DNA from: a virus
Virus record (IMG/VR): IMGVR_UViG_3300035458_000037
Location: 1 to 64,000 of that record
Strand: one strand, 5' to 3'
Length of the DNA: 64,000 nucleotides
In this document: positions 125-62,806 of the stretch, in pieces
How positions within the stretch are numbered: position 1 is the first letter of the stretch
Layout of the letters: each line of letters opens with the position of its first letter
Made by a program: the position numbers and the translations under genes
Notes under the pieces: model-generated
What the model was told of the DNA's origin: nothing
The model's database searches: none
Seen by the model: only the letters and a program-made list of their open reading frames with translations

Positions 125-275
125 GGGTTGAAACTCAACATCCCTCCGAAGCACTCCCTCAAACCCGTCTTCCAGGGGCACTGATACGCCTATGAGATTC
201 TAAAAATCTCTCAACCTCTCCTAGCCTGGGTAACCCACTTTTTTTATCTATGATTAAACCAGGAGTGCATCGAGT

Positions 276-303
276 GAAAAAACTCTTATTTTTATGTTAT
301 AAT
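276..303 (+). promoter_or_regulatory. Conserved phage promoter (variant GAAAA...TGTTATAAT)
   Basis: TATAAT at 298 with extended TG, and G 22 nt upstream as in the other copies. Confidence 0.55.
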
Positions 304-316
304 ATAACTGAGAATC

Positions 317-688
317 TTATTTAGCGTCATCGATAATCGAAAATACATTCTCATCATCGTCGGTGGTGAGGCGCTTCTTTTTACGCATTCCAGGAAGTCG
401 TTTGATATCAACTTTTGATATCTGCCGCGCCAGGTCGTCAAGGTTGACTTTGTAGCGCCCCCGGCTGACCGGCCCCGCCCCGCCCCCGCCGAAAGAGGGT
501 GAACCCTCCAGGGGTTCACTGCCTAAGGATTTCAAGAACTCATTGAGATGCAAAGCGTTGTAGTTGCGGATCAACTCATCCAGCACTTCCTCAACCCGGA
601 GGTGATGATGTGCTGCAATAAGTGCCAGCAACTTGAGCTGTCCCTGGTCCAAGCGATTCCTGATGATCCTGAAGGGTTTTTCTTCCAT
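317..688 (-). CDS. Hypothetical protein, possible ribbon-helix-helix-like N-terminus
   Basis: 123-aa ORF; LDQGQLKLLALIAAHHHLRVEEVLDELIRNY resembles RHH helices. Confidence 0.5.
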   Translation of the reverse strand: MEEKPFRIIRNRLDQGQLKLLALIAAHHHLRVEEVLDELIRNYNALHLNEFLKSLGSEPLEGSPSFGGGGAGPVSRGRYKVNLDDLARQISKVDIKRLPGMRKKKRLTTDDDENVFSIIDDAK

Positions 689-826
689 TTTGACACGACG
701 CGGAAAGGAGGTTGATAATAATAAGATTAACTAGGAAAAAATCGGCATCCCTTAAATAAAAAAATAAAAAAAACAAATAAAAGTAAGATTATTATTGTTA
801 TTCTTATTCTTATGTATATATGGTTT

Positions 827-857
827 GGGGTAGGAGGCTATGTAGGTCTCCTACCCC
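827..857. terminator. Long intergenic stem-loop
   Basis: GGGGTAGGAG...CTCCTACCCC inverted repeat in AT-rich non-coding DNA, downstream of ORF 957..1298(-). Confidence 0.55.
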
Positions 858-956
858 TTGTTCGTGTTTAAAAATGGAATTTTGTAAGTGTTAGCTTGTT
901 TGTGTTTGAGAAGGCTCGTAACATGCCGTGTAAGAAATGAAGCTGATAATTAATCC

Positions 957-1298
957 TTACGTGCGGGTGAGATTCTTTTTTAAAAAATGAAGCACATCAT
1001 CATGTGTCGTTGCGGGCGCGTCATGTAGGGATTGTTTAACATCATCATTTTGAAAAAAGTATGTTTTTACCCCGCCTAAATCAAATAATTTCGACATTTC
1101 CATTTTTGCTTTTTGAGAAGAGAACAAGGTGTCTGAGTTTGCAGAGGTGCCCATGTGACCCGGAATAGAAAAAACGCCTACAGTATCAAGCTCTTGTGCT
1201 GGATACCGAGGCGTGTTACGATTATTCATTAGGCCAACTCCATTCATGTGGAAATGGTAATGCACGGTAATCTTCTCACACTCTAGGGTCGAAGTCAA
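957..1298 (-). CDS. Hypothetical protein
   Basis: 113-aa ORF, start uncertain. Confidence 0.4.
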   Translation of the reverse strand: MTSTLECEKITVHYHFHMNGVGLMNNRNTPRYPAQELDTVGVFSIPGHMGTSANSDTLFSSQKAKMEMSKLFDLGGVKTYFFQNDDVKQSLHDAPATTHDDVLHFLKKNLTRT

Positions 1299-1334
1299 GC
1301 GTTTATTTTCGGAAGTTCCATAACCAAAGAAGGA

Positions 1335-3344
1335 GTGTTACGCATGAAGATAGTAATCATCAGAAACTATGAAGATGTAGAAATAGAATTATATGATCTT
1401 CAATTTTGGAATAGACGACTATTTTGCAAAGGTGATATAGATAATAAAACTTATAAGTTTATTTCTACAGAAGGATTCGAAAATCTTCTTATCAAGATTG
1501 AAGAAGGTGAAGAGTATGAATTTAATCCTAAAGAAGATATTAAATATAAATTTGAACTTAACAGAAAATTCAATCCATATACTTCTGAATATGTGCCAGT
1601 GAGAAATGAGCTATCAGGTAATAATACTAGATCTTATTTTTCTAGATTGCAAATAAAAGCATATGTTAAAGTTTTAAATAAACCTAGGAAATATAGAGAT
1701 AATATAGTTAATATCAAAGATAGAAAATTCAAAAGAATTACTTATGAAGATATAGATATAAGAACTGCGAAAACGATTAAGAAAAGAAAATATGTAAGTT
1801 TTTCAAGTAAGGATACAAATGTTACTTTACGCAAAGTAAAGTTTAAAACAGATGAGTTTATAGAGAGAAAATATATAAAACCTATTAAAGACGTAGGACC
1901 AAACGATTTTTCCGGTGATTACAAACTTATTCAATCATTAGGTCCATTAATCGATAACATGTTCTTCGAAACTGTTGATTTTGATTATCCAGAATTTGAT
2001 TTATGGAAATATCAGAATAATGAAAACTATAGAATGATGAACTATTCTCACCAAAGAAATATTAAACCAAAACTTATAAAGATGAGCGGGGGAAATTTAT
2101 TCTCATCTGATGATCCTCAAAAGATTATTCACGCTGTTCGCAAATCAGAAGATGAAAATAATGTTATCTCATATGAAGACTTCTTCAACACCAATATTCT
2201 CATAAAGATATTTGATTTTGATGCACCAACCCGTGGAGGTTCTACGTTCAGGAGGGTTTTGAAAGAAACTTGTGATAACTCAAATTATACTCGAATAAAG
2301 ATGGTAATCGAATTTATTAGTTATCAGAAATACCTCAAGAAGATTATAGGTGAAAATGATAAATGGATTCACATTTTATTCGATACTTACAGAAGAAACC
2401 GCAAGTATGAGCTTCGGCACTTCTTTGAATATAAAATGCTTATAAAACCATGGCTGATCAGTGGGCGTAGCCGCCCCCTGGACCCCGAGTTCAAGGCGGC
2501 GAAGCGAGGGGGATTGTGGGGCCACAGATTCGTTCTACATAGTGAAATAACCCCCGGAGAGTTCACCCTAGCCTACTACCGCAACGACACCCCAGTTAAT
2601 GAGCTAGAAACGCTTTTTCTTATAAATACAAAATTAACAGCAACACCTTTGTTTCATGTAAAATTACAATATGACTTTGATAAAAAAAGATTAATGATAG
2701 ATGGATATGAAAATAAATATAAATTATCTCAAGATATTGTAAAATACACTAGTATCTCTCATTCTATTACTGTCAGTAATATTTTAGCAAACCTAGATAA
2801 GAATGGAAAGATAGAAATGAAATTATCAAAGACTAAAATGAGACTTTATATAGCCGCAGAAACATTAATTAATCTATATGATTTATTTGAAACATTTGGA
2901 AGTCATGTAGGTAAAGTTAGAGATAATCTGAAGTTAGAATATGTTCGAACTAAAGTCCTTAATGAAATATTTGAATTTGATTTTTACTCGATTACTAAAG
3001 TATTATCTTTACGATCAGGTTTACTTGAAATAAACGATCACCCATTAGATTTAAATGAAATTGCTGTAACTATCTATCAAGCTATTGATTTTATTGTTAA
3101 AATGAAAGATGAAGAATATAGCACTAAGACTCATTATAAAAATATGAAAGAACATGGAATTGATGTTAGTCATAAAAACAAAATGGGAGATAGAAGTGCT
3201 AAGATAAGAACTTGGTATAGTGATGCGAATAAGCTTATTCTATTTGCGTCTAACTTTCAACCGGACGAATATGTTCCAACTTTAAATGAATGGAGTGAAA
3301 ATGCGAAGAATAGCATTGCTCTTACTAATAGTATCTTGTCGTAA
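1335..3344 (+). CDS. Large hypothetical phage protein
   Basis: 669-aa ORF with AAGGAG RBS; no motif recognised. Confidence 0.8.
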   Translation: MLRMKIVIIRNYEDVEIELYDLQFWNRRLFCKGDIDNKTYKFISTEGFENLLIKIEEGEEYEFNPKEDIKYKFELNRKFNPYTSEYVPVRNELSGNNTRSYFSRLQIKAYVKVLNKPRKYRDNIVNIKDRKFKRITYEDIDIRTAKTIKKRKYVSFSSKDTNVTLRKVKFKTDEFIERKYIKPIKDVGPNDFSGDYKLIQSLGPLIDNMFFETVDFDYPEFDLWKYQNNENYRMMNYSHQRNIKPKLIKMSGGNLFSSDDPQKIIHAVRKSEDENNVISYEDFFNTNILIKIFDFDAPTRGGSTFRRVLKETCDNSNYTRIKMVIEFISYQKYLKKIIGENDKWIHILFDTYRRNRKYELRHFFEYKMLIKPWLISGRSRPLDPEFKAAKRGGLWGHRFVLHSEITPGEFTLAYYRNDTPVNELETLFLINTKLTATPLFHVKLQYDFDKKRLMIDGYENKYKLSQDIVKYTSISHSITVSNILANLDKNGKIEMKLSKTKMRLYIAAETLINLYDLFETFGSHVGKVRDNLKLEYVRTKVLNEIFEFDFYSITKVLSLRSGLLEINDHPLDLNEIAVTIYQAIDFIVKMKDEEYSTKTHYKNMKEHGIDVSHKNKMGDRSAKIRTWYSDANKLILFASNFQPDEYVPTLNEWSENAKNSIALTNSILS

Positions 3345-4082: not shown

Positions 4083-4084
4083 TC

Positions 4085-4734: not shown

Positions 4735-4735
4735 A

Positions 4736-5083
4736 ATGAATTTTTATGAAAATTACAAGAAGTTTCGGGGCCGGTGCCGGGAGCTGTCCGAGCTGGCGGT
4801 GAAGAATGATCCTACGCTCCGGCTGGTACGTGGGTATTACTGGTGCCCCGTCATCAACGACAAGGAGCCGCATTGGTGGACTGTGAGGCCGGATGGATCG
4901 ATCTATGACCCTTCGTGCCTCCAGTTCCCCTCAGCGGGCCAGGGTGAATACACGGAGTTTGATGGCTGGGTTGAATGCGCCCGGTGCGGGAAACGAATTC
5001 TTGAAGAGGACATATATGACTTCGTATACAAGCAGCCTTGCTGCTCATACGAATGTGCCCTTGAATATAGTGGATCAAACTAA
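4736..5083 (+). CDS. Cys-rich hypothetical protein
   Basis: HWW motif; CARC...CCSYEC. Confidence 0.65.
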   Translation: MNFYENYKKFRGRCRELSELAVKNDPTLRLVRGYYWCPVINDKEPHWWTVRPDGSIYDPSCLQFPSAGQGEYTEFDGWVECARCGKRILEEDIYDFVYKQPCCSYECALEYSGSN

Positions 5084-5095
5084 ACAGGAGTTTTT

Positions 5096-5395
5096 ATGAA
5101 AGTATGCCTTTACTGTTGCGCAGTGGCAATGTGCTTGGCCTTGGGCTGCGCCCCTTCCAAACCCCTGGAGGTGCCTGAGGACCAGACGGAGTTCATGCGA
5201 TTGAATTATCGTTACGTTGGAACTTTGCCCAATGGTAAAAAGGTTTATGTTACTTCCGTAAGATTCAAAGATGGTGATGATATCCAGACTCATTATATTT
5301 ATTTCAATGAGTCCGGCGAAATCAATAACAATTTCCTGTTTTACAAAGGTAAGTATCGTCGTCGTAAAGTCATAGCAGACATGGAGGGGAAATGA
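5096..5395 (+). CDS. Putative lipoprotein
   Basis: Hydrophobic N-terminus ending LALGC; GGAG RBS. Confidence 0.6.
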   Translation: MKVCLYCCAVAMCLALGCAPSKPLEVPEDQTEFMRLNYRYVGTLPNGKKVYVTSVRFKDGDDIQTHYIYFNESGEINNNFLFYKGKYRRRKVIADMEGK

Positions 5396-11920: not shown

Positions 11921-11990
11921 TTTAAATATCTTGACTTATCTCTAATATGAATTATTCTACCCTGCGAGGGTTCCTGTGCGGAGGCATTCC

Positions 11991-14051
11991 ATGCGGTCCT
12001 TAATCTTGATCCTCACCCTTTTTATGGCCTGCACACCAGCTGACTCAAAGCGGCCTTATCCGGTGTCTGCAATAAGCCAGGAAGAATACAAAGCCCACCT
12101 AGAGCGTAGGGCGCACCAACCCAAACTCCCCCTCGCAGAAATAAACGTAGGAGGCCCTGAAGATTCTGATCTTGAGGAAGTCGAAGGCATAAACCTTTTC
12201 TCGTATCTGAATTTCAGGGCCTGTGGGGGCATAGCTGGGTGGAATCAGAACCTCTATAACCCTCATAATAATGGATGCATATGGGCATCTACTGCAGCCT
12301 GCTCTATCATGCGTGGCCTCAATATTTCCACCCCACAACTATTTTCTGTGGAATGGTTCAAATTGAGTTATCCGGAAAAAGCTAAGTCTAATAAACCTAT
12401 CAATAATGATGTATATTCTTTTGCAAATTGGTATAATGATAATCCAAAATTCATGCCATGGTATTGTGGGAATACCCCTTCAATCAATGGGGTTGATCTC
12501 ACTATACCGGTGAACACTGTTACTGCACATGAGATTCCGACACAAGGTGTTTCACAAGCTCAAGCTATAGCGAACATTAAAGCTGCCTTAGATGACAATA
12601 AACCTGTGGTAATGACGATCTATCTTCCAGGGGGAGGATGGGAGGATTTCTTTAAATGGTGGGACAATTCACCTGAAAATGTAGCTTACGCCGATATTGA
12701 TAAATTCAATGGTTATCGTTTCAGAATGCCAGTCAGCTCGCACAGTGTATGCATCATCGGTTACAACGATACCAGAGAGACTTGGGTAATCCTCAACAGC
12801 TGGGGCACTACCCCTGGAAGACTCCATGGCCTCTTTGAGCTGCCTCAGAACATGTGCTACGGCAGCACCATCACGTACGGGCAGACGCCAATTCGCCAAT
12901 ATGAGTTCGATATCCTGAAGGTGAATTGGCTGGCCGCCATGATTACGCACCCGGCGCCAAACACCACGGTAACCCCAGAGTCAAGTGTATTCTTTTCAGC
13001 ATTAAAGAATCAAAGTTCTACGATCCTCTACACCTGGGACTTCGGCGATGGCACCAGCCTTTCAGATCCTCACCGCCCAGACACCACCCATATCTTTCAC
13101 AAACCTGGGAGCTACAAAGTTACCCTCAAAGTCAACAATATTCTTGGCGGGGAAACCTCTGATTCTCGGGTGCTCATCGTTCAACCTTATCTGCGTCAGC
13201 ACCCATTTTCATATTCACATCCACTTCAAAAGAAAGGAGCTTTAGACGAGTGGATCTGGGGTTTGACGACAGATGACCCAACCGTTAAAACAAGTCAACA
13301 GATTAATTCCTTAAAATCGTTTTCTACAAGAATGACCTTAAGAACAGTTTTTGACCCAGGAATGACCGCAGATTACTATTTATCTTCGGTCAAATCTCTC
13401 TCAAATGTTTCTGATATAATGGGGCTGCTCGTTGATTCTTATGATATGAAAACAATAGATTTAGAAGATATAAAGAATAGAGCCGAAGACTTTATTAGTA
13501 CATTGAATCCTTATGTAAAAATTTGGGAGATTGGCAATGAAGTAAATGGAGATTGGCTGGGTGATGGTGTGATAGAAAAGATAGAAGCCGTATACGATTA
13601 CGCTAGAAACTCAGGTAAAAGCACGGCTCTCACGCTTTTTTATAATGCGGAAGACAGCTCTCAGATGGTTGAATGGGTTGATGAAAATCTTCCTGTCGGA
13701 CACAGGATGAGAGGTGGCTTAGATTATGTATTTGTTAGCTATTATGAGCAAAGTAATAATAATCATAAATTAACTCAAGAAGAAGTTAACTTAATATTTA
13801 ATCAATTAGCAGTTAGATTTCCAAACTCAAAATTGGGTTTTGGAGAGTGTGGCTGGACTGGCACTCAGAAGGTTTCTGATGCTAACAGGATTGCTTTCTA
13901 CAAACGTTTTTATGCTTTGAGATGCCCAGAAGTTCCATTTTTTGTAGGAGGTTATTTCTTCTGGAACTTCAGGCAAAAAATGGTTCCGAAAACAACAGTT
14001 GACTGGAAAACTCTTAATAATATGATAAAGAAAGGAGCCAACACCTATTAG
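11991..14051 (+). CDS. Lipoprotein: papain-like C1 peptidase + PKD + glycoside-hydrolase-like TIM barrel
   Basis: Lipobox LFMAC; GCIWAS, HSVCIIGYND, WVILNSWG; YTWDFGDG...HKPGSYKVTL; WEIGNEVNG and GFGECG. Confidence 0.75.
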   Translation: MRSLILILTLFMACTPADSKRPYPVSAISQEEYKAHLERRAHQPKLPLAEINVGGPEDSDLEEVEGINLFSYLNFRACGGIAGWNQNLYNPHNNGCIWASTAACSIMRGLNISTPQLFSVEWFKLSYPEKAKSNKPINNDVYSFANWYNDNPKFMPWYCGNTPSINGVDLTIPVNTVTAHEIPTQGVSQAQAIANIKAALDDNKPVVMTIYLPGGGWEDFFKWWDNSPENVAYADIDKFNGYRFRMPVSSHSVCIIGYNDTRETWVILNSWGTTPGRLHGLFELPQNMCYGSTITYGQTPIRQYEFDILKVNWLAAMITHPAPNTTVTPESSVFFSALKNQSSTILYTWDFGDGTSLSDPHRPDTTHIFHKPGSYKVTLKVNNILGGETSDSRVLIVQPYLRQHPFSYSHPLQKKGALDEWIWGLTTDDPTVKTSQQINSLKSFSTRMTLRTVFDPGMTADYYLSSVKSLSNVSDIMGLLVDSYDMKTIDLEDIKNRAEDFISTLNPYVKIWEIGNEVNGDWLGDGVIEKIEAVYDYARNSGKSTALTLFYNAEDSSQMVEWVDENLPVGHRMRGGLDYVFVSYYEQSNNNHKLTQEEVNLIFNQLAVRFPNSKLGFGECGWTGTQKVSDANRIAFYKRFYALRCPEVPFFVGGYFFWNFRQKMVPKTTVDWKTLNNMIKKGANTY

Positions 14052-18524: not shown

Positions 18525-18532
18525 GAGGAAAG

Positions 18533-20170
18533 ATGTTTGTCGCGTCGTCAACAATGAACTTACAACTGAAGGTTCAGGAATCACCAGAATACATGGAATT
18601 TGTAGCCACACTTCAAAGGTCAATAGATGAGCTTCTGCCGGATGAAGGACCAGTTTTTACTACAAATGCATCTGGATTGTTTAAAGTTTATCTCATGAAT
18701 TTAAGTCCAAATAATCGTCAAGAACATAATTGTCATACTTGCAGAAGATTTTTCGAAAAGTATGGAGGATTAGTTACAATCTGTAAAGAAACTGGATTTC
18801 AAACGCCATTGTTATGGTCAAAAAATCATTACTATGGAATTAATTATGATCAAGCAGTTCAGGTTCTTCGTGAGATTGTTAAGAGCGCCATGATAACCGG
18901 TGTCTTTTATGATGACAAGAAGGAATGGGGTATCAAAGAAGCGGGTGGTAGAGGACATTTTATTGTATATCCCAAGCCATTCATGATATTCAAAGACAAA
19001 CTTAAGACTCCTGAAGAAGCCATGGCTGAGAAACTTGAAGATTGCAGTATGCTTAGTAGAACATTGAACATTTACAAATTAAAAGATATCCAAGAGGCTT
19101 ATGATATATTAGCGTCAGACATATTATATAGATCCGACAAAGTTATTGGTCCTATGAAATGGTTTTTGGATTTGAAAAAGCAGATGAAACCATCTGTTAC
19201 TATCTCGCAACGTAATAATTTGATCTGGAGAGCCGCAGCCACCGCGCCACCCGGCTTCTGCCATGTCAGATCATCCATGGCCGGATCACTGCTTGAGGAT
19301 CTTGAGCAGGGCTACCCCCTGGAGGACGTGAAGAGAAGGTTTGCTGCAAAGATGCAGCCAGATCAGTACCTGCGCCCCCAGGCCCCTGCCAGTGCCGGTA
19401 ATGCCATCCAGGGGGAGAAGATCATCAAGAAGTTGGGATGCACTCTCTCCCTTTCACGGCGTTACCTACAGTTGGATGAGGTCAAGTATCTTCGGAAGTT
19501 TCGAAAGCTTCCGCCTCCATTTCGTAAACGGCGTCCGACAGGCGTATTTAAAGACGTGGTTTCCGAGCCCAGGATGGCCCCAGAAAGCTCCAGAATCGGT
19601 GACCCTAGTAAAGGGTTCCAGACCGTTAATATCACGTGGAGGAAATTTAGAGAGACGTTTCTTCCTCAGGTAACTCAAATGGAAGTTTTTATCCGATCTC
19701 AAAAATATGCATTTATCGCTTTAACAACTGCTGTTTATGCAGATGCACCACCAATTCTAAAATGGGATTCAGAAGAAAAAAGAAATCCTGTTTCTAGTTA
19801 CGTTTATACCTATGGATCATATCCTGGCAGTTGGGGTCTAAAAGGAGAGACTTTTGTTGAAGTAATTGGAATATGTTTTAATCCAGAATGTTGGCAAAAA
19901 GAGCAGGAAAATAAGAGTATAATATTCTTGTTAAAGGATGCAGAAGATTCTGGTAGTGATTCATGTGGGTTAGCATTATTTCCAGAAAATCTCATTTCTG
20001 AATTACATTCAATTAGATCTACGATTGAAAAATTCAGTAAGGGAGGTAAATTGAAAAAGGTTGATAGTCCAGCTTGCGGAGTTTGTTTCGGTGATGGTAA
20101 TTGGAATATTCTCTTGAGAGTAAAACTTCTAAACTATGTTAGGGATTTCATAATCGATAGGTTCGATTAA
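18533..20170 (+). CDS. Conserved large-phage hypothetical protein
   Basis: 545 aa; HNCHTCRRF metal motif; GGAGG RBS. Confidence 0.8.
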   Translation: MFVASSTMNLQLKVQESPEYMEFVATLQRSIDELLPDEGPVFTTNASGLFKVYLMNLSPNNRQEHNCHTCRRFFEKYGGLVTICKETGFQTPLLWSKNHYYGINYDQAVQVLREIVKSAMITGVFYDDKKEWGIKEAGGRGHFIVYPKPFMIFKDKLKTPEEAMAEKLEDCSMLSRTLNIYKLKDIQEAYDILASDILYRSDKVIGPMKWFLDLKKQMKPSVTISQRNNLIWRAAATAPPGFCHVRSSMAGSLLEDLEQGYPLEDVKRRFAAKMQPDQYLRPQAPASAGNAIQGEKIIKKLGCTLSLSRRYLQLDEVKYLRKFRKLPPPFRKRRPTGVFKDVVSEPRMAPESSRIGDPSKGFQTVNITWRKFRETFLPQVTQMEVFIRSQKYAFIALTTAVYADAPPILKWDSEEKRNPVSSYVYTYGSYPGSWGLKGETFVEVIGICFNPECWQKEQENKSIIFLLKDAEDSGSDSCGLALFPENLISELHSIRSTIEKFSKGGKLKKVDSPACGVCFGDGNWNILLRVKLLNYVRDFIIDRFD

Positions 20171-23865: not shown

Positions 23866-24292
23866 TCATATTGATATGTCACAATATCGATATGCTACAA
23901 AGCTATCCTCTGGCATCGATCTTCGTGCTAACCTGCTGGGGATGGAGTTGGAACCTCCAGGGGAACTACTGGTCTGGATCAATCAGCCTATCGTTGTGCC
24001 TACTGGTCTTACGTGTCAATTTCGGAACCGAGATATTGAAGCCCAGGTGCGCTCACGGGGAGGTCTTGCTGCCAAGCATGGCGTCTTCGTCCTGAACTCC
24101 CCCGGAACGATTGATGCGGATTATGAAGGAGAAATCAAAATAATACTTTGCAATACTATGAATGTTCCATTTAAGATTAAGCATGGAGATAGAATTGCTC
24201 AATTAGTAATTGCTCCGATTATAAGAATTCCTGAATATATGTCTGATCGTTATCGTGGAGAAGGACATCTTAGTTCCACAGGTATATCATAA
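23840..24292 (+). CDS. dut: Trimeric dUTPase
   Basis: GIDL, RSRGG, GTIDADYEG, RIAQL, RGEGHLSSTG motifs. Confidence 0.95.
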   Translation: MFKLIPLHDHIDMSQYRYATKLSSGIDLRANLLGMELEPPGELLVWINQPIVVPTGLTCQFRNRDIEAQVRSRGGLAAKHGVFVLNSPGTIDADYEGEIKIILCNTMNVPFKIKHGDRIAQLVIAPIIRIPEYMSDRYRGEGHLSSTGIS

Positions 24293-26991: not shown

Positions 26992-26993
26992 CT

Positions 26994-27278: not shown

Positions 27279-27423
27279 GTTTCCCCTTCGCTTTTTTGAG
27301 TTCTTCCACATCATCGGCAAGCAACTCTTTAACTTCCCCCTGGATGTGTTTGAAAGTTTTATCGTCCTTAGTCATATGTTTGCTATCAACGATCATTTTC
27401 TTTGCCAACTTGATAATTCCCAT
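27247..27423 (-). CDS. 58-aa protein MGIIKLAKKM... (not in ORF track)
   Basis: Translated by hand; AGGAG RBS; shares the IKLA tag. Confidence 0.65.
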   Translation of the reverse strand: MGIIKLAKKMIVDSKHMTKDDKTFKHIQGEVKELLADDVEELKKAKGKHEPCKAGCPK

Positions 27424-44779: not shown

Positions 44780-45709
44780 ATGCTTATCGATCACATACAC
44801 GATCAATTGGGCCGGCACAGGGTTGGCATCATAAGTGAGTCGATGCCGGAATTTATAAAAGTTGCGGAAGAAGAGATAGTATCTGAGGATCTGACAAAAC
44901 TCGCTGATGGATGTTTTGCATATTCAAATCGGGTAGAAAGATTCTTTCCGATACATACTCCTGAACATACGTGGTTGAGCCATGCGTATTTCAATAAATT
45001 TGCATCTGAAATAGATGAGAAAGAAGTAAATGAGATTCGTATTAAAATCGACGATGCCTGTAAAGCATTTGGTTTTAATGAAGATTCGTTGGTAAAGATT
45101 GCCGCGCATGAAGATGAGATTGACGCTCTTCATACTTTATCTGTCGAATTAAATAAATTTGTAAACAATTACAAAAAACTGAAGCCAGAAGAGAGACGGC
45201 AGCGGGCAAAAGAGTTGGCTCATCATGCCAAAGCTTTGAATCGGGAGCACTCTCTTCATGATGTGGTGCATCGGTATTCCGGGGATCATCTCCGGCGTGA
45301 CTACCACCAGGCCTTTGGGCATCGCATGGGCTACTTCCACCACGGGGCACCGGAGCGGAAGATGCTGATGGAGATGCAGGACAATGCCCACGAGCACGTA
45401 CCTGAAAGAGTGGCGCGGGCGCTGACGATCTTTGACCGAAATGCTGGGCTGGATAGCCATTACGATCAGGATCTGGATGACCCCTATTCCGCGCTGCTAA
45501 CCGGCCAGGAGCCCGACGCGGATGATGTCGAGGTCGAAGGACACCGGATTCCCAGGCACCTCTTCCAGGAGTTCAACTGGGACTCTTTACAGGATCTGCT
45601 TGCCGAAGAGAGACTGGCCGCGCTCAAGGCCTCACCCCTGGAGGGCCTCAGAGGAATGGAGCCCTCCGTTCGTATGATTATCATTCGCAAGATTCATCAT
45701 CATGCATGA
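44780..45709 (+). CDS. Putative head-associated protein with repeated KxA motifs
   Basis: FIKVAE, LTKLAD, FNKFAS, LVKIAA. Confidence 0.7.
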   Translation: MLIDHIHDQLGRHRVGIISESMPEFIKVAEEEIVSEDLTKLADGCFAYSNRVERFFPIHTPEHTWLSHAYFNKFASEIDEKEVNEIRIKIDDACKAFGFNEDSLVKIAAHEDEIDALHTLSVELNKFVNNYKKLKPEERRQRAKELAHHAKALNREHSLHDVVHRYSGDHLRRDYHQAFGHRMGYFHHGAPERKMLMEMQDNAHEHVPERVARALTIFDRNAGLDSHYDQDLDDPYSALLTGQEPDADDVEVEGHRIPRHLFQEFNWDSLQDLLAEERLAALKASPLEGLRGMEPSVRMIIIRKIHHHA

Positions 45710-50896: not shown

Positions 50897-51864
50897 CATA
50901 CAAGCTTCCTGCTCCGTCCGTTACCAAATTACTGGTTCAGCCTAGTCAAAATTTGGCAGACAGTCAGCTTCTTCCGTGTTTGGTTGGGCCTCTCAATCAG
51001 GTTGTAAAGTCAGCCCCGATCGCTCTTATTTATCCGGTATCCAATGCTACAATAGCTTATCCTGGTATGAAACCTGGCGCTATTATTAGCACAAGTAGTA
51101 TTGGAGTGGTTGTTAATAATGCTATAGTTCAGATTAATGCATCACCGATAAGTGCAGGTGGAAATTTTGTTGCTGGCACTAATACAATTCATATTGCCAG
51201 TGCATTTACGAATGCATTAGCAGGTGATATCATTACATTGAGCGCAGCAGGTGGTGTGTATACTATTGCAACGGTTGTTGATAATGATCATGCTACTACC
51301 GTTGAAACGATTCATCATACAACTTCTGCTGAAACGTTTAATATTACACGAGCAATTGCATCAGCTACCGCGAAACTGAATGGAGTGGTTTACAACACTA
51401 CGTTTATGACCGTCGTATCTATGACTTACGGCACTAATGACTACGTATTTGTAGATGGTGATGCGGTAATCAGTTATGTGGCAGCTCGTAAAGATCTTCT
51501 TGGATTTTATACAGTGGACAATCCGGATACTTTGGCTGCGGATATGGATGTGGACATTTTGAATCCGTTGGGATTTGATTTGGGCATTGCAATGGCTGGA
51601 GCTGGCGCAGCAACACGATTGGCATATATCACTAGGGATGGCAGTCAAAATTCTTATATCGCAGCTCTTGCAGATTTGGCTACTCGGCGCGGTCCCTACA
51701 TGATTTCCAGTGTCAATTTTGCAGACTCCACCATCCAGGGGTTCTTTGCTACGCATGCCGAGACAGTTTCGATGCCAAGTGTTAGCATGTTCAGAGCTGC
51801 TTTGTTGACCACAGACATTGTGAAACAGCTCACGCTGACCAGCGCCACTTACACCAAGTCTTAA
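50893..51864 (+). CDS. Tail sheath, N-terminal half
   Basis: PSV...PCLVG N-terminus, NPL motif, YIAALADL. Confidence 0.6.
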   Translation: MTYKLPAPSVTKLLVQPSQNLADSQLLPCLVGPLNQVVKSAPIALIYPVSNATIAYPGMKPGAIISTSSIGVVVNNAIVQINASPISAGGNFVAGTNTIHIASAFTNALAGDIITLSAAGGVYTIATVVDNDHATTVETIHHTTSAETFNITRAIASATAKLNGVVYNTTFMTVVSMTYGTNDYVFVDGDAVISYVAARKDLLGFYTVDNPDTLAADMDVDILNPLGFDLGIAMAGAGAATRLAYITRDGSQNSYIAALADLATRRGPYMISSVNFADSTIQGFFATHAETVSMPSVSMFRAALLTTDIVKQLTLTSATYTKS

Positions 51865-52858: not shown

Positions 52859-53587
52859 ATGGCCGCAAATGGCGTTTCAATAAAAGACCTATTGGGCGTT
52901 GATAGTGGGGCGAATGACTGGCAGTGGAGAGAGAACTTCGTCCAGTTGGACGAGAACATGGCCACCCCTGGATTATTCATTGCCGCAGAGTCCACTTTGG
53001 TTGCTTTTGGTCCTGCAACAGCCACCTCAGCTTTCGACGTGGTGAAGGTGGGTTTATGCCCCAATATCGCAATCTCTCAGCAGATTCCGCAGCAACGACT
53101 TCCCGAGATCGGATCGATCCGGGTACATATCCTGAACGGGGTTCCTATTGGCGGTGGATCGATGTCGCGCTTGGTCTACAACGGCCCTAGCCTTATGCGC
53201 TACGCTTACGGCAACCTGTACGATGACAATGGCGCTCCAACTCCCTTGGCACTCGCAGGAATGGCTACTGGAGTAGGCCCCGCTCAGGACTTTACAACAA
53301 ATGCCTGGAAAAATCTGGTGAAGTCACCGGATAAAGTGATGCAAGGGCATGTGTTCACGGATCTATGGATTTCCTGCTGGGACTCCAGATTGAAAGCGCC
53401 ATTTGGCCTGTGCATGTATTTCCAGGATATTGCTGGTAATGCAGTAGGTGGTGTTTATGCTGAAGGCACCAAGATCAATTCTCATAACTTGACGCAATCT
53501 GCCGGTCAGTTGATTATGATGGAAGGTATCTCATTTGCGTTTGATAGGCTTGTTCCTATCCGTGGCGTTGGAAGGAGTCAATTATGA
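52859..53587 (+). CDS. Putative tail tube protein
   Basis: QRLPEIGS motif; follows the sheath. Confidence 0.65.
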   Translation: MAANGVSIKDLLGVDSGANDWQWRENFVQLDENMATPGLFIAAESTLVAFGPATATSAFDVVKVGLCPNIAISQQIPQQRLPEIGSIRVHILNGVPIGGGSMSRLVYNGPSLMRYAYGNLYDDNGAPTPLALAGMATGVGPAQDFTTNAWKNLVKSPDKVMQGHVFTDLWISCWDSRLKAPFGLCMYFQDIAGNAVGGVYAEGTKINSHNLTQSAGQLIMMEGISFAFDRLVPIRGVGRSQL

Positions 53588-57539: not shown

Positions 57540-57552
57540 CCAAGGAGAGTTT

Positions 57553-59121: not shown

Positions 59122-59127
59122 ATTAAT

Positions 59128-59152: not shown

Positions 59153-59157
59153 AGATA

Positions 59158-60006: not shown

Positions 60007-60104
60007 GAGAAGCTCCAATCACTTTCTGAATTTTACCGCGTTCCCAGGTATAAACGCAGAAAAGGGCCACGCAAGCGCGGCCCTCTCCTGCGTACCAGCA
60101 CCCT

Positions 60105-60572
60105 TTAAGCGGACTCTGGGGTTTGTGCCGGGGCTGGAGCTGGGCTCGTGGGAGCAGCAGTCTTGGCAGCCGTCTTTTGTGGAGTAGGGGCTGGGACAGG
60201 CTTGACGGCAGGAGCCACAACTGGAGCTGGCTCCTGGGGCAGATAATTCGTCGGAACCCCATCAATTACAAGGGGTTCCGACTTCGCAAAGTCAATTGTC
60301 GGTGCAGGAACTTGAATGGGCTCGCCATTCTTATCCACGGGAGGATTCAAAGACAAGTAACTTTCGTTGAAAAGTTCCAGGGAGGGTTTGAACTTATATG
60401 CATCTGCTTCGTCTTTTGTATTAAACACTTTGACGAGGCCACGGGCTTCCATCTCTTTGTAGAGTTCTGGATAATCAGTTCGTCCAACTTTCCCTTCCGG
60501 CAAAACAAAATCAGCGGAAGTGATGGTTCCGAAAAGTGATTTTACATACGACACGGTAACTCCCATTTTCAA
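60105..60572 (-). CDS. Hypothetical protein with Pro/Ala-rich tail
   Basis: 155-aa ORF in the head operon. Confidence 0.65.
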   Translation of the reverse strand: MKMGVTVSYVKSLFGTITSADFVLPEGKVGRTDYPELYKEMEARGLVKVFNTKDEADAYKFKPSLELFNESYLSLNPPVDKNGEPIQVPAPTIDFAKSEPLVIDGVPTNYLPQEPAPVVAPAVKPVPAPTPQKTAAKTAAPTSPAPAPAQTPESA

Positions 60573-60583
60573 CTAATTATTGA

Positions 60584-61513
60584 TTAGGTCAAACTGGCGA
60601 TGCCAGTGATCTTGGAAACAGAGGAAACGTTGCCGACTTCGATACCCTGATTGGTCCAGGAATACCACTCCAGCATATTACCCTTGCGATCCATTTCCTG
60701 TTGGACATCGCGCAACATAAAGTTGCTGCCCAAGAATTCAGGAGCCGCCACGCAATAGATATAATCATCAGGCCACACACTGGTAATGGAACTATTCACA
60801 GCGTTAATGGAAGTGATGACTTCGTAGCCCAGGAATGTCTTCTCAGGAGCCACGCCATTGAACGCAATGCGATCAACGGAGTTGTAGCCAATCTTATCGG
60901 GTTCAAGCTTTGCCAGATTGAGCCAGGTGCTCTCAGTCATAATCAAACGAGCAGCTCGACGCCTGCGGCCCAGGACGGCCCGGACACCAGCGATAACCGC
61001 ATCTTTGAACACACCTTTGACCGTACCAGCACCAGCCGGAATCACGTTGGTAGAGGTCTGCGCGGCGGCAGCAGCATCCAAACGCAGTTTGAACATGCCG
61101 TCCACCTGTTCCTGGAGATCGAAAACGAAGTTGTTATTAACAACATCGATCAAAGGAAAACGCATAGTCATCAACTCTTCCTGAGTCTTCTTATAATGCT
61201 CAGTTTCGAGTTTGGCAAACCAAACTTCATACTTACGGCCTTCAACAAACTGCGCAGAACCACGCCCACGGAAACCAAGTGTGAAAGCCTTCGAATCAGG
61301 TTCCAACCAAACGCGCTTCAGGGGGAAGTCGTTCTGAGTATTCGTATCAATCTGGGCTTCGGTAAGAACAATTGGTGCAATACAACGATTTGCTACGCAA
61401 GTTTCACGGATACGATCTCGAAGATAATCTTCGGTCAATCCCGCGACTTTTTCCATTCCGTCGCTGGAACCAGTGAACACATCCCATAGCTGGGAAGCAA
61501 GAATTTCTGACAT
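60584..61513 (-). CDS. Putative major capsid protein
   Basis: 309 aa; strongly biased codons; AAGGAG RBS; follows scaffold- and decoration-like genes. Confidence 0.7.
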   Translation of the reverse strand: MSEILASQLWDVFTGSSDGMEKVAGLTEDYLRDRIRETCVANRCIAPIVLTEAQIDTNTQNDFPLKRVWLEPDSKAFTLGFRGRGSAQFVEGRKYEVWFAKLETEHYKKTQEELMTMRFPLIDVVNNNFVFDLQEQVDGMFKLRLDAAAAAQTSTNVIPAGAGTVKGVFKDAVIAGVRAVLGRRRRAARLIMTESTWLNLAKLEPDKIGYNSVDRIAFNGVAPEKTFLGYEVITSINAVNSSITSVWPDDYIYCVAAPEFLGSNFMLRDVQQEMDRKGNMLEWYSWTNQGIEVGNVSSVSKITGIASLT

Positions 61514-61557
61514 ATAATCTCCTTGAGCTGTTTAGCTAATTAAGAATTGGCGACCTA

Positions 61558-62004
61558 TTACACCAAGATACGGAATTGAACGATCTTACCGATAGGAGTG
61601 CCCAAGGCAAAGTCAGTGGAAGCAGCTTTTGTTGCGATGCACTTGGCGAAATAAGCACCAGAACTGAGATCGCCAGCAGAAGCCTTCGCAATCTTACCAC
61701 TCACGCAAGTAAGCAGATCACTGGCACCAATAGCACCGTTTGTGGAGTCGTCAATCTGATCGGTTTCGGCTTCAAACACACCGAAAACGACAGAATATTT
61801 CTTCGAAGAATTACCGCTCAAATCTTCAAAGACAAATTCCACCTGACGATAATCGGCAGAAGTAGCAGCAGCCACCAGGGTGCCACTGCCATCAGTCTTG
61901 ACGACAGCTCCCTTGACAAAAGTTGCACCGGTAGACGCACGGCTCACAGTGGCTACCGAGTAAGAGCCTTCCTGAAGGCCACTTAGGATGTTGAAGATCG
62001 CCAT
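61558..62004 (-). CDS. Putative capsid decoration/cement protein
   Basis: 148 aa, small-residue-rich, directly upstream of the capsid gene. Confidence 0.6.
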   Translation of the reverse strand: MAIFNILSGLQEGSYSVATVSRASTGATFVKGAVVKTDGSGTLVAAATSADYRQVEFVFEDLSGNSSKKYSVVFGVFEAETDQIDDSTNGAIGASDLLTCVSGKIAKASAGDLSSGAYFAKCIATKAASTDFALGTPIGKIVQFRILV

Positions 62005-62048
62005 GAGTTCTCCTCTTTAGCAAGTTTTTGAGAATTTAAGAATTTTGG

Positions 62049-62411
62049 TTAAGCAAGACCCAATTCTTCCATGATTAAAGCTTGTCTTTCATGGAATTTA
62101 TTGTCAGCATTGGAAGCGGTTTTCGTCATCTCTTCGCCAGCTACCCGGCCAAAAGATACCTTTCGACTCAGTGTATCCGCAATTTTCAACATTGCATCAG
62201 CGCCACCATTTTCCTGGGCTTCTTTCAGCATATTCTCGGCTTCTTCATAGGACACGCCAACTTTACCAGCCAATTGTTCGGCTTTTTTATTGAGGCCTTC
62301 TGAGTGCTGACTTTTCTGCTGGAGCTGCGCGGTCATTTCCTGAATGATCGCTGCGCCTTCATCAATGATCTGGAGGGCTTGCTGTAGGGCCTGTTCGAGT
62401 TCAGCGCTCAT
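62049..62411 (-). CDS. Scaffold-like helical protein
   Basis: Coiled coil; LNKKAE, MLKIAD, MTKTAS. Confidence 0.65.
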   Translation of the reverse strand: MSAELEQALQQALQIIDEGAAIIQEMTAQLQQKSQHSEGLNKKAEQLAGKVGVSYEEAENMLKEAQENGGADAMLKIADTLSRKVSFGRVAGEEMTKTASNADNKFHERQALIMEELGLA

Positions 62412-62806
62412 TATTTCACCTCCGCAAAGAGACGCTTGCCACGGAGTGCAGCCAGCTTCATGAGCGCGGCCACCTTGATCTGGGTGCCGTCCGGTCGAGC
62501 GATTACTACTGCGCCACCACCTGCCTCTGCGCCAGCACCAGGAGTCTCCCCTTCAGCCGCCTCTTCCCCAGGAGCACCACCCCCTGGAGGCTGATCTCCA
62601 CCTGCGCCCGCTGCCATTTGACCAAGTGAAGCCTTGAATTTCTCAACATTAGCCAAATGAGCTTGAGCGGATGCGAGAATATCACCACCGCCTTGCTGCT
62701 GAGCAGATTCTGTGGGGCCACCATTTTGATCGTTAGCATTTTTCTCAACGGGATCAAGCAATAACTCATCTTGAGCCTCTTTGATAATTTGATCGATTAT
62801 TCCCAT
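62411..62806 (-). CDS. Scaffold/core-like protein
   Basis: VEKNAN, IKVAA, LMKLAA; G/A/P-rich linker. Confidence 0.65.
   Translation of the reverse strand: MGIIDQIIKEAQDELLLDPVEKNANDQNGGPTESAQQQGGGDILASAQAHLANVEKFKASLGQMAAGAGGDQPPGGGAPGEEAAEGETPGAGAEAGGGAVVIARPDGTQIKVAALMKLAALRGKRLFAEVK

What the first reader, a model, noticed from the sequence alone, without database searches (positions are those of the whole stretch)
171..62588. Dispersed DNA motif CCCCTGGA(N)G, 17 exact copies, written into unrelated genes in four reading registers
Seen by hand scan. CCCCTGGA starts at 2475, 5162, 12811, 19316, 27337, 33101, 42353, 45635, 52965 and 62581. Its reverse complement TCCAGGGG starts at 171, 507, 12626, 19407, 23956, 33154 and 51734. 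Fifteen of the 17 extend to CCCCTGGA[G/A/T]G. Variants CCCCCGGA occur at 2551, 24099 and 31852. At roughly 35% GC, fewer than one copy is expected in 64 kb; assuming about 8 kb of 60% GC islands still predicts fewer than one there. The motif is read as Pro-Leu-Glu/Asp (6 times), Pro-Gly via CCT-GGA (3), Pro-Gly via CCA-GGG (4), Ile-Gln-Gly (3), and is once non-coding, so selection appears to act on DNA rather than protein. Several copies form close inverted pairs (12626/12811, 19316/19407, 33101/33154). The core contains CCWGG, the Dcm-type methylation site. Inference: a genome-wide cis-signal, such as a loading site for a DNA-organising or anti-silencing protein, a self-marking modification site, or a recombination/repair initiation site. 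I do not recognise it as a described phage element.
Basis: partly seen in the sequence, partly recalled or inferred. Interest (0 to 1): 0.88.

Follow-up and report, generated by a model that had tools for sequence, protein, structure and literature searches.

The report
Evenly spaced phage octamer signal CCCCTGGA
A group of large soil phages keeps the 8-letter DNA word CCCCTGGA written at regular intervals on both strands of their genomes, regardless of what the genes encode, so some machine, most likely the phage's own DNA primase, reads it as a signal.

Summary
All 17 copies sit at the stated coordinates, against 0.74 expected. The whole 84.8-kb contig holds 20.

The excess survives shuffles that keep each protein, each gene's codon usage and the GC islands: 18 copies in coding sequence against 3.5, with at most 10 in 200 shuffles.

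The word is shared by a lineage. A relative with 56% DnaE identity (G001) has 34 copies, and none of the reversed word. G007 and G005 carry the core MCCCTGGA. A 39%-identity relative (G006) has none.

Positions mostly turn over while density is kept. Sites are more evenly spaced than random. Same-strand sites are never closer than about 1.85 kb in G001, whereas opposite-strand sites lie as close as 26-60 bp. This points to a reader that works on one strand at a time.

The phage encodes a DnaG-type primase fused to a helicase. My best reading is preferred priming sites with a CTG core (confidence about 0.4). The main rival is a Chi-like hotspot array. Dcm-type marking is not supported.

In this lineage only, the word sits in conserved, evenly spaced GC-rich islands. 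That is unexplained.

This scan has reported similar arrays of other words in other phages.

The parts
171..178 (-). CCCCTGGA copy, non-coding, in the GC island at 1-190. An 8-bp tandem repeat, GCACCCAG x about 7, lies next to it at 72-121.
507..514 (-). CCCCTGGA copy, read P-L-E in minus-strand gene 317-688. It forms the only close same-strand pair (336 bp from 171).
2475..2482 (+). CCCCTGGA copy, read P-L-D in gene 1335-3344, at the left edge of island 2448-2595.
5162..5169 (+). CCCCTGGA copy, read P-L-E, at the right edge of island 4766-5199.
12626..12633 (-). CCCCTGGA copy, antisense to the PKD/peptidase-like gene 11976-14051 (read P-G). One of 2 copies outside a called island. Inverted partner of 12811 (185 bp).
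12811..12818 (+). CCCCTGGA copy, read T-P-G, in island 12728-13204.
19316..19323 (+). CCCCTGGA copy, read P-L-E in gene 18497-20170. Inverted partner of 19407 (91 bp).
19407..19414 (-). CCCCTGGA copy, antisense, read I-Q-G, in the same island 19225-19625.
23956..23963 (-). CCCCTGGA copy, antisense, read P-G, in island 23907-24119.
27337..27344 (+). CCCCTGGA copy, antisense to a small minus-strand gene (read H-I-Q-G-E), just outside island 26658-27291.
33101..33108 (+). CCCCTGGA copy in dnaE (P-L-E; relative G001 has P-T-L-E-E here and no motif). Inverted partner of 33154 (53 bp).
33154..33161 (-). CCCCTGGA copy, antisense in dnaE (H-P-G; G001 has H-A-S), in island 32974-33238.
42353..42360 (+). 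CCCCTGGA copy, read P-P-G, in island 42159-42604.
45635..45642 (+). CCCCTGGA copy, read P-L-E. Conserved at the same place in relatives L095 (89% nucleotide identity) and L110 (72%).
45564..45571 (-). Near-cognate TCCAGGAG. Relatives L095 and L110 have the exact inverted copy TCCAGGGG here, so this site was lost or gained by one letter.
51734..51741 (-). CCCCTGGA copy, antisense, read I-Q-G, in island 51582-51848.
52965..52972 (+). CCCCTGGA copy at an invariant A-T-P-G. G001 encodes the same residues without the motif. G005 has a core copy that maps to this place.
62581..62588 (+). CCCCTGGA copy, antisense to minus-strand gene 62411-62818 (read P-P-G), in island 62112-62722.

Best explanation
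CCCCTGGA (core MCCCTGGA across the clade) is a cis-acting DNA signal. Selection on the DNA itself keeps it at a roughly even density of one copy per 3-4 kb in a clade of roughly 160-kb phages.

It is read one strand at a time. Copies on the same strand keep their distance, while copies on opposite strands do not interfere with each other.

The most likely reader is the phage's own DnaG-type primase, fused to an SF3-like helicase (1104 aa, genome 73309-76623, outside the window). On this reading the word is the preferred start site for lagging-strand primers. The template 5'-CCCC-T-G-3' contains the classical DnaG trinucleotide CTG. Synthesis would start opposite T, with G as the cryptic base, and run through the four C's. 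That would give a G-rich primer that pairs stably in an AT-rich genome, analogous to T7's 5'-GGGTC-3' sites.

Shown: the enrichment, its independence from coding, the lineage distribution, the spacing rule, and the presence and fold of the primase.

For: Enrichment:
- 17 copies in the window against 0.74 expected.
- 20 in G000; 34 in G001 with 0 of the reversed word.
- Codon- and island-aware shuffles give 3.5 (G000) and 2.0 (G001), against 18 and 34 observed.

Sharp specificity:
- One-mismatch neighbours occur 0-7 times each. Only the two end positions are relaxed.
- There is no conserved flank.

Spacing:
- G001, all sites: CV 0.63 against 0.96 for random placement, P=0.003.
- G000 plus strand: CV 0.34, P=0.0006.
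- The smallest same-strand gaps in G001 are 1850 and 1975 bp; permuting strand labels gives P=0.0015.
- Of the 10 adjacent pairs closer than 1 kb in G000 and G001, 9 are on opposite strands.

All six frame and strand registers are used in G001. There is no bias towards the coding strand: 60 same against 46 antisense, p=0.21.

- Residues 1-450 of the 1104-aa protein fold (pLDDT 89.5) as a DnaG zinc-binding domain plus RNA-polymerase/TOPRIM domain. The top match is Aquifex primase 2au3 (E 6e-12), followed by E. coli, S. aureus and M. tuberculosis DnaG, T4 gp61 and T7 gp4.
- Glu277, Asp331 and Asp378 are invariant in the family alignment A5.
- The C-terminal part hits DUF927 and primase/helicase PHROGs weakly.
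- Orthologues: 45% identity in G005, which prefers ACCCTGGA; 28% in G006, which has no array.

Literature:
- DnaG primases start on defined trinucleotides such as d(CTG), at the middle base with a cryptic 3' base, and the zinc-binding domain sets the specificity (PMC2978363, abstract and passages).
- T7 uses 5'-(G/T)2GTC-3' plus flank contributions (PMC12839067, listing abstract only).
- AtTwinkle uses 5'-(G/C)GGA-3' with a cryptic GA (PMC5737085, abstract).
- An 8-nt primase site is reported for the NrS-1 enzyme (PMC8718748, passages).
Against: - No DnaG-type primase is known to need 7-8 specified bases; the documented sites have 3-5.
- Same-strand spacing of 4-8 kb is long for Okazaki fragments.
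- G006 has a primase orthologue but no octamer array, so the enzyme does not by itself require one.
- The primase gene lies outside the G001 and G007 contigs, so its co-occurrence with the array could be checked only in G000, G005 and G006.
- The strand choice that would place the word on the lagging-strand template is equally what a Chi model predicts. No origin is mapped.
- The model does not explain why 18 of the 20 copies in G000 sit in GC-rich islands.
- The zinc-binding domain has lost most of its zinc ligands.
Confidence: 0.4

Rival explanations
1. Chi-like array. The octamer is recognised on single-stranded DNA by a translocating helicase-nuclease. This could be the unknown host's RecBCD/AddAB, or the phage's own RecD2-like helicase with its PD-(D/E)XK nuclease. 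Recognition would switch the enzyme from degradation to recombination. That would protect phage DNA and fuel recombination-dependent replication. In the G000 lineage, repeated exchange at these sites could have built the GC islands through GC-biased repair.
For: - The word is an asymmetric 8-mer with no flank requirement, at a density of 1 per 3-4 kb, close to E. coli Chi at 1 per 4.6 kb.
- It is the most frequent octamer, and the next most frequent ones overlap it by 7 letters. The same is described for Chi in phages LLS and P1 (PMC12315714, section 15 read).
- Positions turn over while density is kept.
- Reading is strand-specific.
- The phage encodes a RecD2-like helicase, a DUF2800 PD-(D/E)XK nuclease, an SbcC-like ATPase and an SSB, all conserved in G005.
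- In G000, GC content peaks at the word.
Against: - The two orientations are nearly balanced: 11:9 in G000 and 14:20 in G001. In LLS 20 of 23 Chi sites share one orientation and cluster near one end (PMC12315714).
- In the complete genome G005, the sites near the left end are in the orientation that would be inactive for an enzyme entering from that end, assuming E. coli geometry.
- The even spacing is not a described property of Chi.
- Lambdoid phages that have their own recombination module mostly lack Chi (PMC12315714, abstract).
- The host is unknown.
- Among the 5 + 151 bacterial genomes I counted (G011 is in both calls), the only high counts I followed up were Magnetococcales MAGs. In the one examined, many copies sit in a REP-like palindromic repeat.
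- GC content is symmetric around the word.
Confidence: 0.25
2. A site for another sequence-specific phage or host protein acting on duplex DNA. Candidates are a nicking enzyme (as at T5-type or phiKMV-type single-strand interruptions), a replication-origin or partition protein, a genome-organising protein, or an anti-defence 'self' mark.
For: - The 8-bp specificity is strict and conserved in the lineage.
- Coverage of the genome is even.
- In the G000 lineage the word is associated with conserved GC-rich islands, which could be a structural context.
- Many clade-specific proteins of unknown function lie next to the replication genes.
Against: - A duplex-binding protein should not care which strand carries the word. 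Yet same-strand copies avoid each other and opposite-strand copies do not.
- No nickase, methylase or recognisable DNA-binding family was found among the roughly 70 G000 proteins, or parts of them, that I scanned.
- From memory, T5-type nicks lie on one strand only.
Confidence: 0.17
3. A by-product of methylation and repair. A Dcm-type methyltransferase with very-short-patch repair, or another biased mutational or repair drive, creates the word from near-cognates without the word having any function.
For: - The core contains CCWGG.
- CCWGG is about 2-fold over the composition expectation overall: 134 against 67 in G000, and 111 against 49 in G001.
Against: - No C5 or N6/N4 methyltransferase is found in G000, G001, G007 or the complete G005.
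- The excess belongs to one 8-mer. Near-cognates are not depleted or enriched in a pattern that a CTWGG-to-CCWGG drive would give.
- A mutational drive does not predict even spacing or same-strand avoidance.
Confidence: 0.05
4. A chance or compositional artefact of GC-rich islands, codon usage or Pro-Gly/Pro-Leu-Glu peptides.
For: - 18 of 20 copies lie in GC-rich islands.
- Pro-Gly accounts for 21 of 34 copies in G001.
Against: - Shuffles that preserve protein, codon usage and islands give at most 10 of the 18 observed copies, and at most 5 of 34.
- G001 carries 34 copies in AT-rich context with no local rise in GC.
- The invariant A-T-P-G at 52965 is encoded without the word in G001.
- Words with 1 or 2 mismatches are only 50% and 33% in islands, against 90% for the exact word.
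Confidence: 0.02

Closest known systems
Template recognition sites of DnaG/T7-gp4-type primases: E. coli d(CTG); T7 5'-(G/T)2GTC-3'; plant Twinkle 5'-(G/C)GGA-3'
   Same: The phage encodes a primase of this fold. The word contains CTG preceded by a run of four C's, which would template a G-rich primer, like T7's GGGTC. The reading is strand-specific, and both strands are covered at intervals.
   Different: Known sites specify 3-5 bases and, as far as I found (search), are not reported as enriched, evenly spaced genome-wide arrays. Here 7-8 bases are strict. The zinc-binding domain has lost most of its zinc ligands. No biochemical data exist.
Chi arrays in Chi-rich phages (E. coli phages LLS and P1, GCTGGTGG)
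   Same: It is the most frequent octamer of the genome, and its 7-letter overlaps are the next most frequent. It is independent of codon usage, and its density is a few kb per site (PMC12315714, section 15).
   Different: LLS Chi sites are strongly polar (20 of 23) and clustered near an end. Those phages lack their own recombination genes, and the word is the host's Chi. Here the orientation is balanced, the spacing is even, the phage has its own helicase and nuclease genes, and no host enrichment is known.
8-nt recognition sequence of the NrS-1 primase-polymerase (5'-TTTGGTTA-3'), and evenly spaced octamer arrays reported earlier in this scan for other phages
   Same: An 8-letter word tied to a phage-owned primase. 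The earlier scan notes describe the same even spacing per strand with other words.
   Different: NrS-1's enzyme is an AEP prim-pol with a helix-bundle domain (PMC8718748, passages). The enzyme here is DnaG-type. The scan notes are unchecked AI notes, not published evidence.
Dcm/EcoRII-type CCWGG sites
   Same: The core contains CCTGG.
   Different: No methyltransferase gene was found. The specificity extends to 8 letters. Enrichment and even spacing are the opposite of restriction-site avoidance.

Membership tests
Primase start-site array (DnaG/T7-type) | The genome encodes a primase of this type with intact catalytic residues | tested here: met
   The fold of residues 1-450 matches DnaG ZBD+RPD (2au3 E 6e-12; T4 gp61; T7 gp4). 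Glu277, Asp331 and Asp378 are invariant in A5.
Primase start-site array (DnaG/T7-type) | The site contains an initiation trinucleotide with a cryptic 3' base | tested here: inconclusive
   CTG is present at positions 4-6 of the word (sequence). Whether it is used is untested. Literature: PMC2978363.
Primase start-site array (DnaG/T7-type) | Sites lie on the lagging-strand template and are read per strand | tested here: inconclusive
   Same-strand avoidance and per-strand evenness are shown. Strand domains in G001 and G005 would fit an origin at a gene-orientation switch, but no origin is mapped.
Primase start-site array (DnaG/T7-type) | The primase makes primers at the word in vitro or in vivo | not testable with these tools
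   Needs biochemistry or nascent-strand mapping.
Chi (crossover hotspot instigator) | Short asymmetric word without flank requirement, over-represented beyond codon usage | tested here: met
Chi (crossover hotspot instigator) | The same word is over-represented and replichore-skewed in the host chromosome | tested here: inconclusive
   The host is unknown. In the 5 + 151 bacterial genomes counted, the high counts I followed up were Magnetococcales MAGs. In the one examined, many copies sit in a REP-like repeat.
Chi (crossover hotspot instigator) | Strong orientation bias in the phage genome relative to the entry end | tested here: not met
   11:9 in G000 and 14:20 in G001. In G005 the sites near the left end have the 'inactive' orientation under E. 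coli geometry.
Dcm-type methylation / VSP-repair site | A cognate C5 methyltransferase is encoded, and all CCWGG sites behave alike | tested here: not met
   PF00145 and PF01555 are absent from G000, G001, G005 and G007. The excess is confined to one 8-mer. Host enzymes were not tested.
T5-type single-strand interruption sites | Sites confined to one strand, and nicks present in virion DNA | tested here: not met
   Both strands carry sites. That T5 nicks are on one strand only is recalled, not taken from a call. Nicks cannot be tested here: laid contigs only.
Dispersed repeat element (REP, MITE, uptake sequence with context) | Conserved sequence beyond the core | tested here: not met
   There is no similarity between the flanks of the copies.

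The most novel reading that the evidence does not exclude
The word is a strand-specific initiation site for replication or recombination, and in the G000 lineage it has become a long-lived exchange hotspot. Repeated heteroduplex repair biased towards G/C around it would have built about 30 evenly spaced, position-conserved GC-rich islands (55-60% GC) inside the codons of an otherwise 35%-GC genome. That would be the first case of hotspot-centred GC-biased gene conversion shaping a virus genome, with the hotspot word known.
Probability: 0.12. Interest if true: 0.85.

Novelty: new variant of a known kind. Interest (0 to 1): 0.62.

Why it matters
If the primase reading holds, a DnaG-type primase would have a 7-8-letter site specificity, and a phage would write its priming sites into its genes at set intervals. 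That would be a new way of organising lagging-strand synthesis, directly testable with one purified protein and a few oligonucleotides.

If the Chi-like reading holds, the word identifies a new Chi sequence, and through it the unknown host or a phage-owned Chi-reading enzyme.

Either way the word is a compact marker for this uncultured clade of roughly 160-kb phages.

Its coupling to conserved GC-rich islands offers a rare handle on what creates sharp compositional islands inside coding DNA.

This scan has now met comparable arrays of different words in several unrelated phages, which suggests a general phenomenon. My two literature searches found no description of it.

Tried and rejected
Second word GCACCCAGGC. 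It ranked high among 10-mers but is only an 8-bp tandem repeat at 72-121.

Islands as copies of one element. Rejected: island-against-island blastn gives only matches of 24 bp or less.

Islands as insertions or recent imports. Rejected:
- They align collinearly with G001 proteins, at 54% against 45.5% amino-acid identity.
- In L095 and L110 the same places are GC-rich, and nucleotide identity inside the islands is no higher than outside.

Islands as former motif positions of relatives. Not supported: 2 of 11 G001 sites and 2 of 7 G005 sites map into G000 islands, against a 15-17% share.

Asymmetry of GC content around the word. None found (Wilcoxon p of 0.5 or more).

Coding-strand bias. None: 60 against 46, p=0.21.

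Phage database. blastn of dnaE against 50,697 phage records gave no match.

Metagenome scan with the DnaE alignment. It chose patterns shared with bacterial DnaE, so 78 of its 80 loci were not clade members. Only L012 and L017 were.

Host search:
- No tRNA genes in the window.
- POT-transporter homologues are about 50% identical to proteins named after Bacteroidota and Planctomycetes, with no close host match.
- The genome-contig scan gave only 29-36% identity hits.
- Motif counts in 5 + 151 bacterial genomes showed very high counts in some genomes. The three I could name are Magnetococcales MAGs, with about 58-60% GC around recA. In the one I looked at (G128), many copies come in pairs 27 bp apart inside a REP-like palindromic repeat, often at contig ends. 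I dropped this as a host lead. It does not exclude other hosts: base composition of the other genomes was not available, so the counts cannot be normalised.

Reader by gene content. Listing G005 genes shared with G000 or G001 but not detected in G006 gave 36 candidates, too many to be useful.

Sequencing runs. One run labelled soil metagenome held 6% of the sampled words, and no RNA holder was listed. Laying it gave 38 contig pieces, 3 of them at 99% or more alike and 17 under 90%. They cover both island and non-island DNA. There are no raw reads, so nothing can be said about nicks, ends or expression.

Other blanks:
- PDB sequence searches of the 529-aa and 1104-aa proteins found nothing useful.
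- Pfam at E up to 5 on segments added nothing.
- G006 and L012 have no comparable octamer.
- Complex prediction, the protein-atlas search and the RNA tools were not used.
- Supplementary files were not opened. Supplemental Table S3 of PMC12315714 (Chi counts per phage) may bear on the comparison with Chi arrays.

Full report
THE OBSERVATION

Dinucleotide-preserving shuffles give a mean of 0.74 and never more than 2.

The window is the first 64 kb of an 84,848-bp virus contig. The contig is 37.7% GC and CheckV rates it 54% complete. It holds 20 copies, and the word is by far the most over-represented 8-mer.

The other details also hold:
- 15 of 17 copies extend to [A/G/T]G.
- The three CCCCCGGA variants are where stated.
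- The four reading registers are as stated.
- The inverted pairs are real.

IS IT MORE THAN COMPOSITION OR CODING?

The genome is a mosaic. A two-state HMM GC-rich islands, 11.1 kb in all, at 55% GC against a 35% background. Eighteen of the 20 copies lie in them. From that composition I calculate about 0.5 copies expected inside the islands.

I shuffled synonymous codons within each gene, which keeps every protein and each gene's codon usage. That gives 1.6 copies. Shuffling separately inside and outside islands gives 3.5, with at most 10 in 200 shuffles. The observed count in coding sequence is 18.

The copies share no flanking sequence. One-letter variants of the word occur only 0-4 times each in G000 and 0-7 times in G001. 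The signal is therefore a sharp 8-mer, set at the DNA level.

RELATIVES

The proteins are very divergent from anything described. No phage record matches dnaE by blastn, and most proteins hit no Pfam or PHROG family.

Searches with DnaE and a portal-like protein found a clade of uncultured phages with contigs up to 173 kb. The census is as follows.

| Record | Relation to G000 | Size and GC | Copies |
|---|---|---|---|
| G001 | DnaE 56% identical | 112.6 kb, 31.8% GC | 34 exact copies, 0 of the reversed control |
| G007 | same clade; 27 G005 genes have hits in it | 33 kb | 7 CCCCTGGA + 8 ACCCTGGA |
| G005 | collinear with G000 | 157,395 bp, complete, 127-bp terminal repeat | core CCCTGGA 29 against 3.7 expected; 17 preceded by A, 9 by C |
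| L095 | portal 98% identical | 4.9 kb | 2 |
| L110 | portal 85% identical | 4.9 kb, 43% GC | 3 |
| L108 | portal 61% identical | 6.5 kb | 2 |
| L017 | DnaE 47% identical | 4 kb | 1 |
| G006 | portal 39% identical | 168.6 kb, complete | 1, i.e. none above chance |
| L012 | DnaE 40% identical | 22.9 kb, 47.5% GC | 1 |

L097 and L099 are identical to G007, so they do not count separately.

In G001 the copies sit in AT-rich DNA with no local rise in GC, and no flank is conserved. All six frame and strand registers are used there.

The word belongs to one sub-clade. Its core is MCCCTGGA, and it does not need GC-rich surroundings.

POSITIONS AGAINST DENSITY

Between genomes at about 72% nucleotide identity, only 5 of 23 alignable sites are conserved. 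About 13% of random 7-mers are conserved, so this is no clear excess.

The invariant A-T-P-G at 52965 is written without the word in G001. The dnaE copies have no counterpart in G001.

At closer range sites do persist. 45635 is conserved in L095 (89% nucleotide identity) and in L110 (72%). Both of those also have an inverted partner 72 bp away, which in G000 is one letter off. G005 has a core copy that maps to 52965.

Density is kept while places turn over. Position-free arrays behave this way.

SPACING

Sites are more evenly spread than random placement:
- G001: CV of gaps 0.63 against 0.96 (P=0.003), and the largest gap is 7.9 kb (P=0.009).
- G000 after merging close pairs: CV 0.57 (P=0.02).

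The rule is strand-wise:
- In G001 no two same-strand copies are closer than 1850 bp (plus strand) or 1975 bp (minus strand). Permuting strand labels gives P=0.0015.
- The G000 plus-strand copies have a CV of 0.34 (P=0.0006).
- Opposite-strand copies lie as close as 26, 53, 60 and 91 bp.
- Of the 10 adjacent pairs under 1 kb in G000 and G001, 9 are on opposite strands.

There is no bias towards the coding strand: 60 same against 46 antisense, p=0.21.

A protein that binds duplex DNA would not distinguish strands in this way. A machine that reads single strands, or tracks along DNA in one direction, would.

CANDIDATE READERS

The contig encodes:
- DnaE, two SNF2-type helicases, an SSB, a dNMP kinase, an RNA ligase and a radical-SAM protein.
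- An SbcC-like ATPase, a RecD2-like helicase and a DUF2800 PD-(D/E)XK nuclease.

An 1104-aa protein at genome 73309-76623, outside the window, has weak primase/helicase PHROG and DUF927 hits. Its family has 17 members with E below 1e-30 among 1.84 billion representatives.

With their alignment (A5), residues 1-450 fold confidently (pLDDT 89.5). The fold matches DnaG-type primases:
- Aquifex ZBD+RPD, 2au3 (E 6e-12).
- The DnaG catalytic cores of S. aureus, B. subtilis, E. coli and M. tuberculosis.
- T4 gp61 and T7 gp4.
- The B. stearothermophilus zinc-binding domain.

Acidic residues are invariant (Glu277, Asp331, Asp378). The zinc-binding domain lacks most zinc ligands.

The orthologue is 45% identical in G005 and 28% in G006. 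No C5 or N6/N4 methyltransferase family is detectable in G000, G001, G007 or the complete G005.

BEST READING

DnaG-type primases start on defined template trinucleotides. E. coli uses d(CTG). Synthesis starts at the middle base with a cryptic 3' base, and the zinc-binding domain sets the specificity (PMC2978363, abstract and passages).

T7 prefers 5'-(G/T)2GTC-3', with further flank effects (PMC12839067, listing abstract only). Plant Twinkle uses 5'-(G/C)GGA-3' with a cryptic GA (PMC5737085, abstract).

The word 5'-CCCC-T-G-G-A-3' has CTG at its centre, preceded by four C's. A primer that starts opposite T would read pppAGGGG. That is a strongly pairing primer in an AT-rich genome, much like T7's GGGTC giving pppACCC. 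The two most tolerant positions, 1 and 8, would be the primer's last templated base and the outermost cryptic base.

Together with the strand-wise even spacing, this makes preferred priming sites for the phage's own primase my first choice, at about 0.4.

Weaknesses of this reading:
- 7-8-base specificity is unprecedented for this primase class.
- Same-strand spacing of 4-8 kb is long for Okazaki fragments.
- G006 has the enzyme but no array.
- No origin is mapped.
- The GC islands are not explained.

MAIN RIVAL

Chi arrays are documented in phages. LLS has 23 sites and P1 has 50. In both, Chi is the most frequent octamer and its 7-letter overlaps come next. The excess is not explained by codon usage (PMC12315714, abstract and section 15; Bobay 2013, PMC3784561, seen only in the search listing). 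The pattern here matches that description.

The phage also has helicase and nuclease genes that could in principle read such a site.

Against this rival:
- Orientation is balanced, whereas in LLS 20 of 23 sites are polar and clustered near an end.
- The spacing is even.
- Phages with their own recombination module mostly lack Chi (same paper).
- I could not find a host.

Ribosome-binding sites upstream of genes are common: 67 of 111 G000 genes have one. From memory, this argues against a Bacteroidota host.

Counting the word in 5 + 151 bacterial genomes turned up very high counts in some genomes. The three I could name are Magnetococcales MAGs. In the one examined, many copies are pairs inside a REP-like palindromic repeat, not isolated words. 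I give the Chi-like reading 0.25.

THE GC ISLANDS

In G000 the mean GC content peaks at the word: 0.51-0.53 within 50 bp, falling to background within 150-350 bp. The peak is symmetric.

Of the exact copies, 90% are in islands. Only 50% of one-mismatch words and 33% of two-mismatch words are (P of 2e-4 or less). The association is therefore more than a supply of raw material.

Properties of the islands:
- They raise GC at all three codon positions: 0.60/0.46/0.58 against 0.44/0.34/0.28.
- They fall in somewhat better conserved protein segments: 54% against 45.5% identity to G001.
- G001 is not GC-rich opposite them, at 34.7%.
- They are themselves evenly spaced, CV 0.67, P=0.013.
- In the three cases testable, the same places are GC-rich in L095 and L110, with no higher identity inside than outside.

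So the islands are old, maintained features of the G000 sub-lineage, not recent imports. Fifteen of the 31 lack the word. Relatives' sites do not map into them more often than chance.

I cannot explain them.

COMPARISON AND NOVELTY

I found no paper that describes evenly spaced octamer arrays tied to a primase in phages, or GC-rich islands in AT-rich phage genomes. A full-text search for the word returned 1,738 papers. Judged by title and abstract start, none of the 20 listed treats it as a signal in phage DNA, though one is a phage genome announcement that I did not open.

This scan has noted similar arrays of other words in other phages, read as primase sites or Chi-like arrays. Those notes gave me the primase lead. 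I tested it here only as far as showing the primase fold and the strand-wise spacing.

I class the finding as a new variant of a known kind, a sequence-specific strand-read signal array. The mechanism is open, and the link to GC islands is unusual.

Noticed in passing
whole contig; e.g. window 32974-33238, 45184-45672, 47535-47860: There are 31 sharp GC-rich islands (55% against 35% GC) written into codons. They are evenly spaced (CV 0.67, P=0.013). In the three cases testable, the same places are GC-rich in relatives at 89% and 72% nucleotide identity, with no higher identity inside than outside. Fifteen of them lack the octamer. The cause is unknown.
   Followed up: partly
window 72-121: An 8-bp tandem repeat, GCACCCAG x about 7, lies in a non-coding GC-rich stretch at the contig's left end, next to two minus-strand octamer copies (171 and 507). 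It could be a replication or regulatory element. In the complete relative G005 the homologous region is internal, not a genome end.
   Followed up: no
L010 / G002 (IMGVR_UViG_3300021400_001778, 108,758 bp): A distantly related DnaE phage (26% identity, 34.7% GC) has its own over-represented octamer, TCTGGCGA: 21 copies against 1 of the reversed control, on both strands but more clustered.
   Followed up: partly
G128 (Magnetococcales MAG), e.g. L156-L161: A REP-like dispersed palindromic repeat carries CCAGGGG...CCCCTGGA stems, often as two copies 27 bp apart and often at contig ends. It contributes many of the 1454 copies of the same octamer in 4.5 Mb, while the reversed word is almost absent (15). 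Other Magnetococcales MAGs show similar counts.
   Followed up: partly
window 56259-59121: Tandem MFS (AmpG-like) and POT-family peptide transporter genes lie inside the phage. An 83%-identical POT protein exists on a 9.6-kb JGI metagenome contig, and the nearest named bacterial homologues are about 50% identical.
   Followed up: partly
genome 73309-84722 (outside the window; L093, L094): A replication and recombination block: a DnaG-type primase fused to a DUF927/SF3-like helicase (1104 aa, zinc-binding domain without most zinc ligands), an SbcC-like ATPase, a transposase-like PHROG hit, a RecD2-like helicase, a Gp3-like protein and a DUF2800 PD-(D/E)XK nuclease. All are conserved in G005.
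   Followed up: partly
G005 (IMGVR_UViG_3300030004_000001): The word GCCATNGCCA (N = C, T or A; 13, 13 and 11 copies) and long CAG/GCA codon repeats are strongly over-represented in this complete 157-kb relative. They are probably coding repeats.
   Followed up: no
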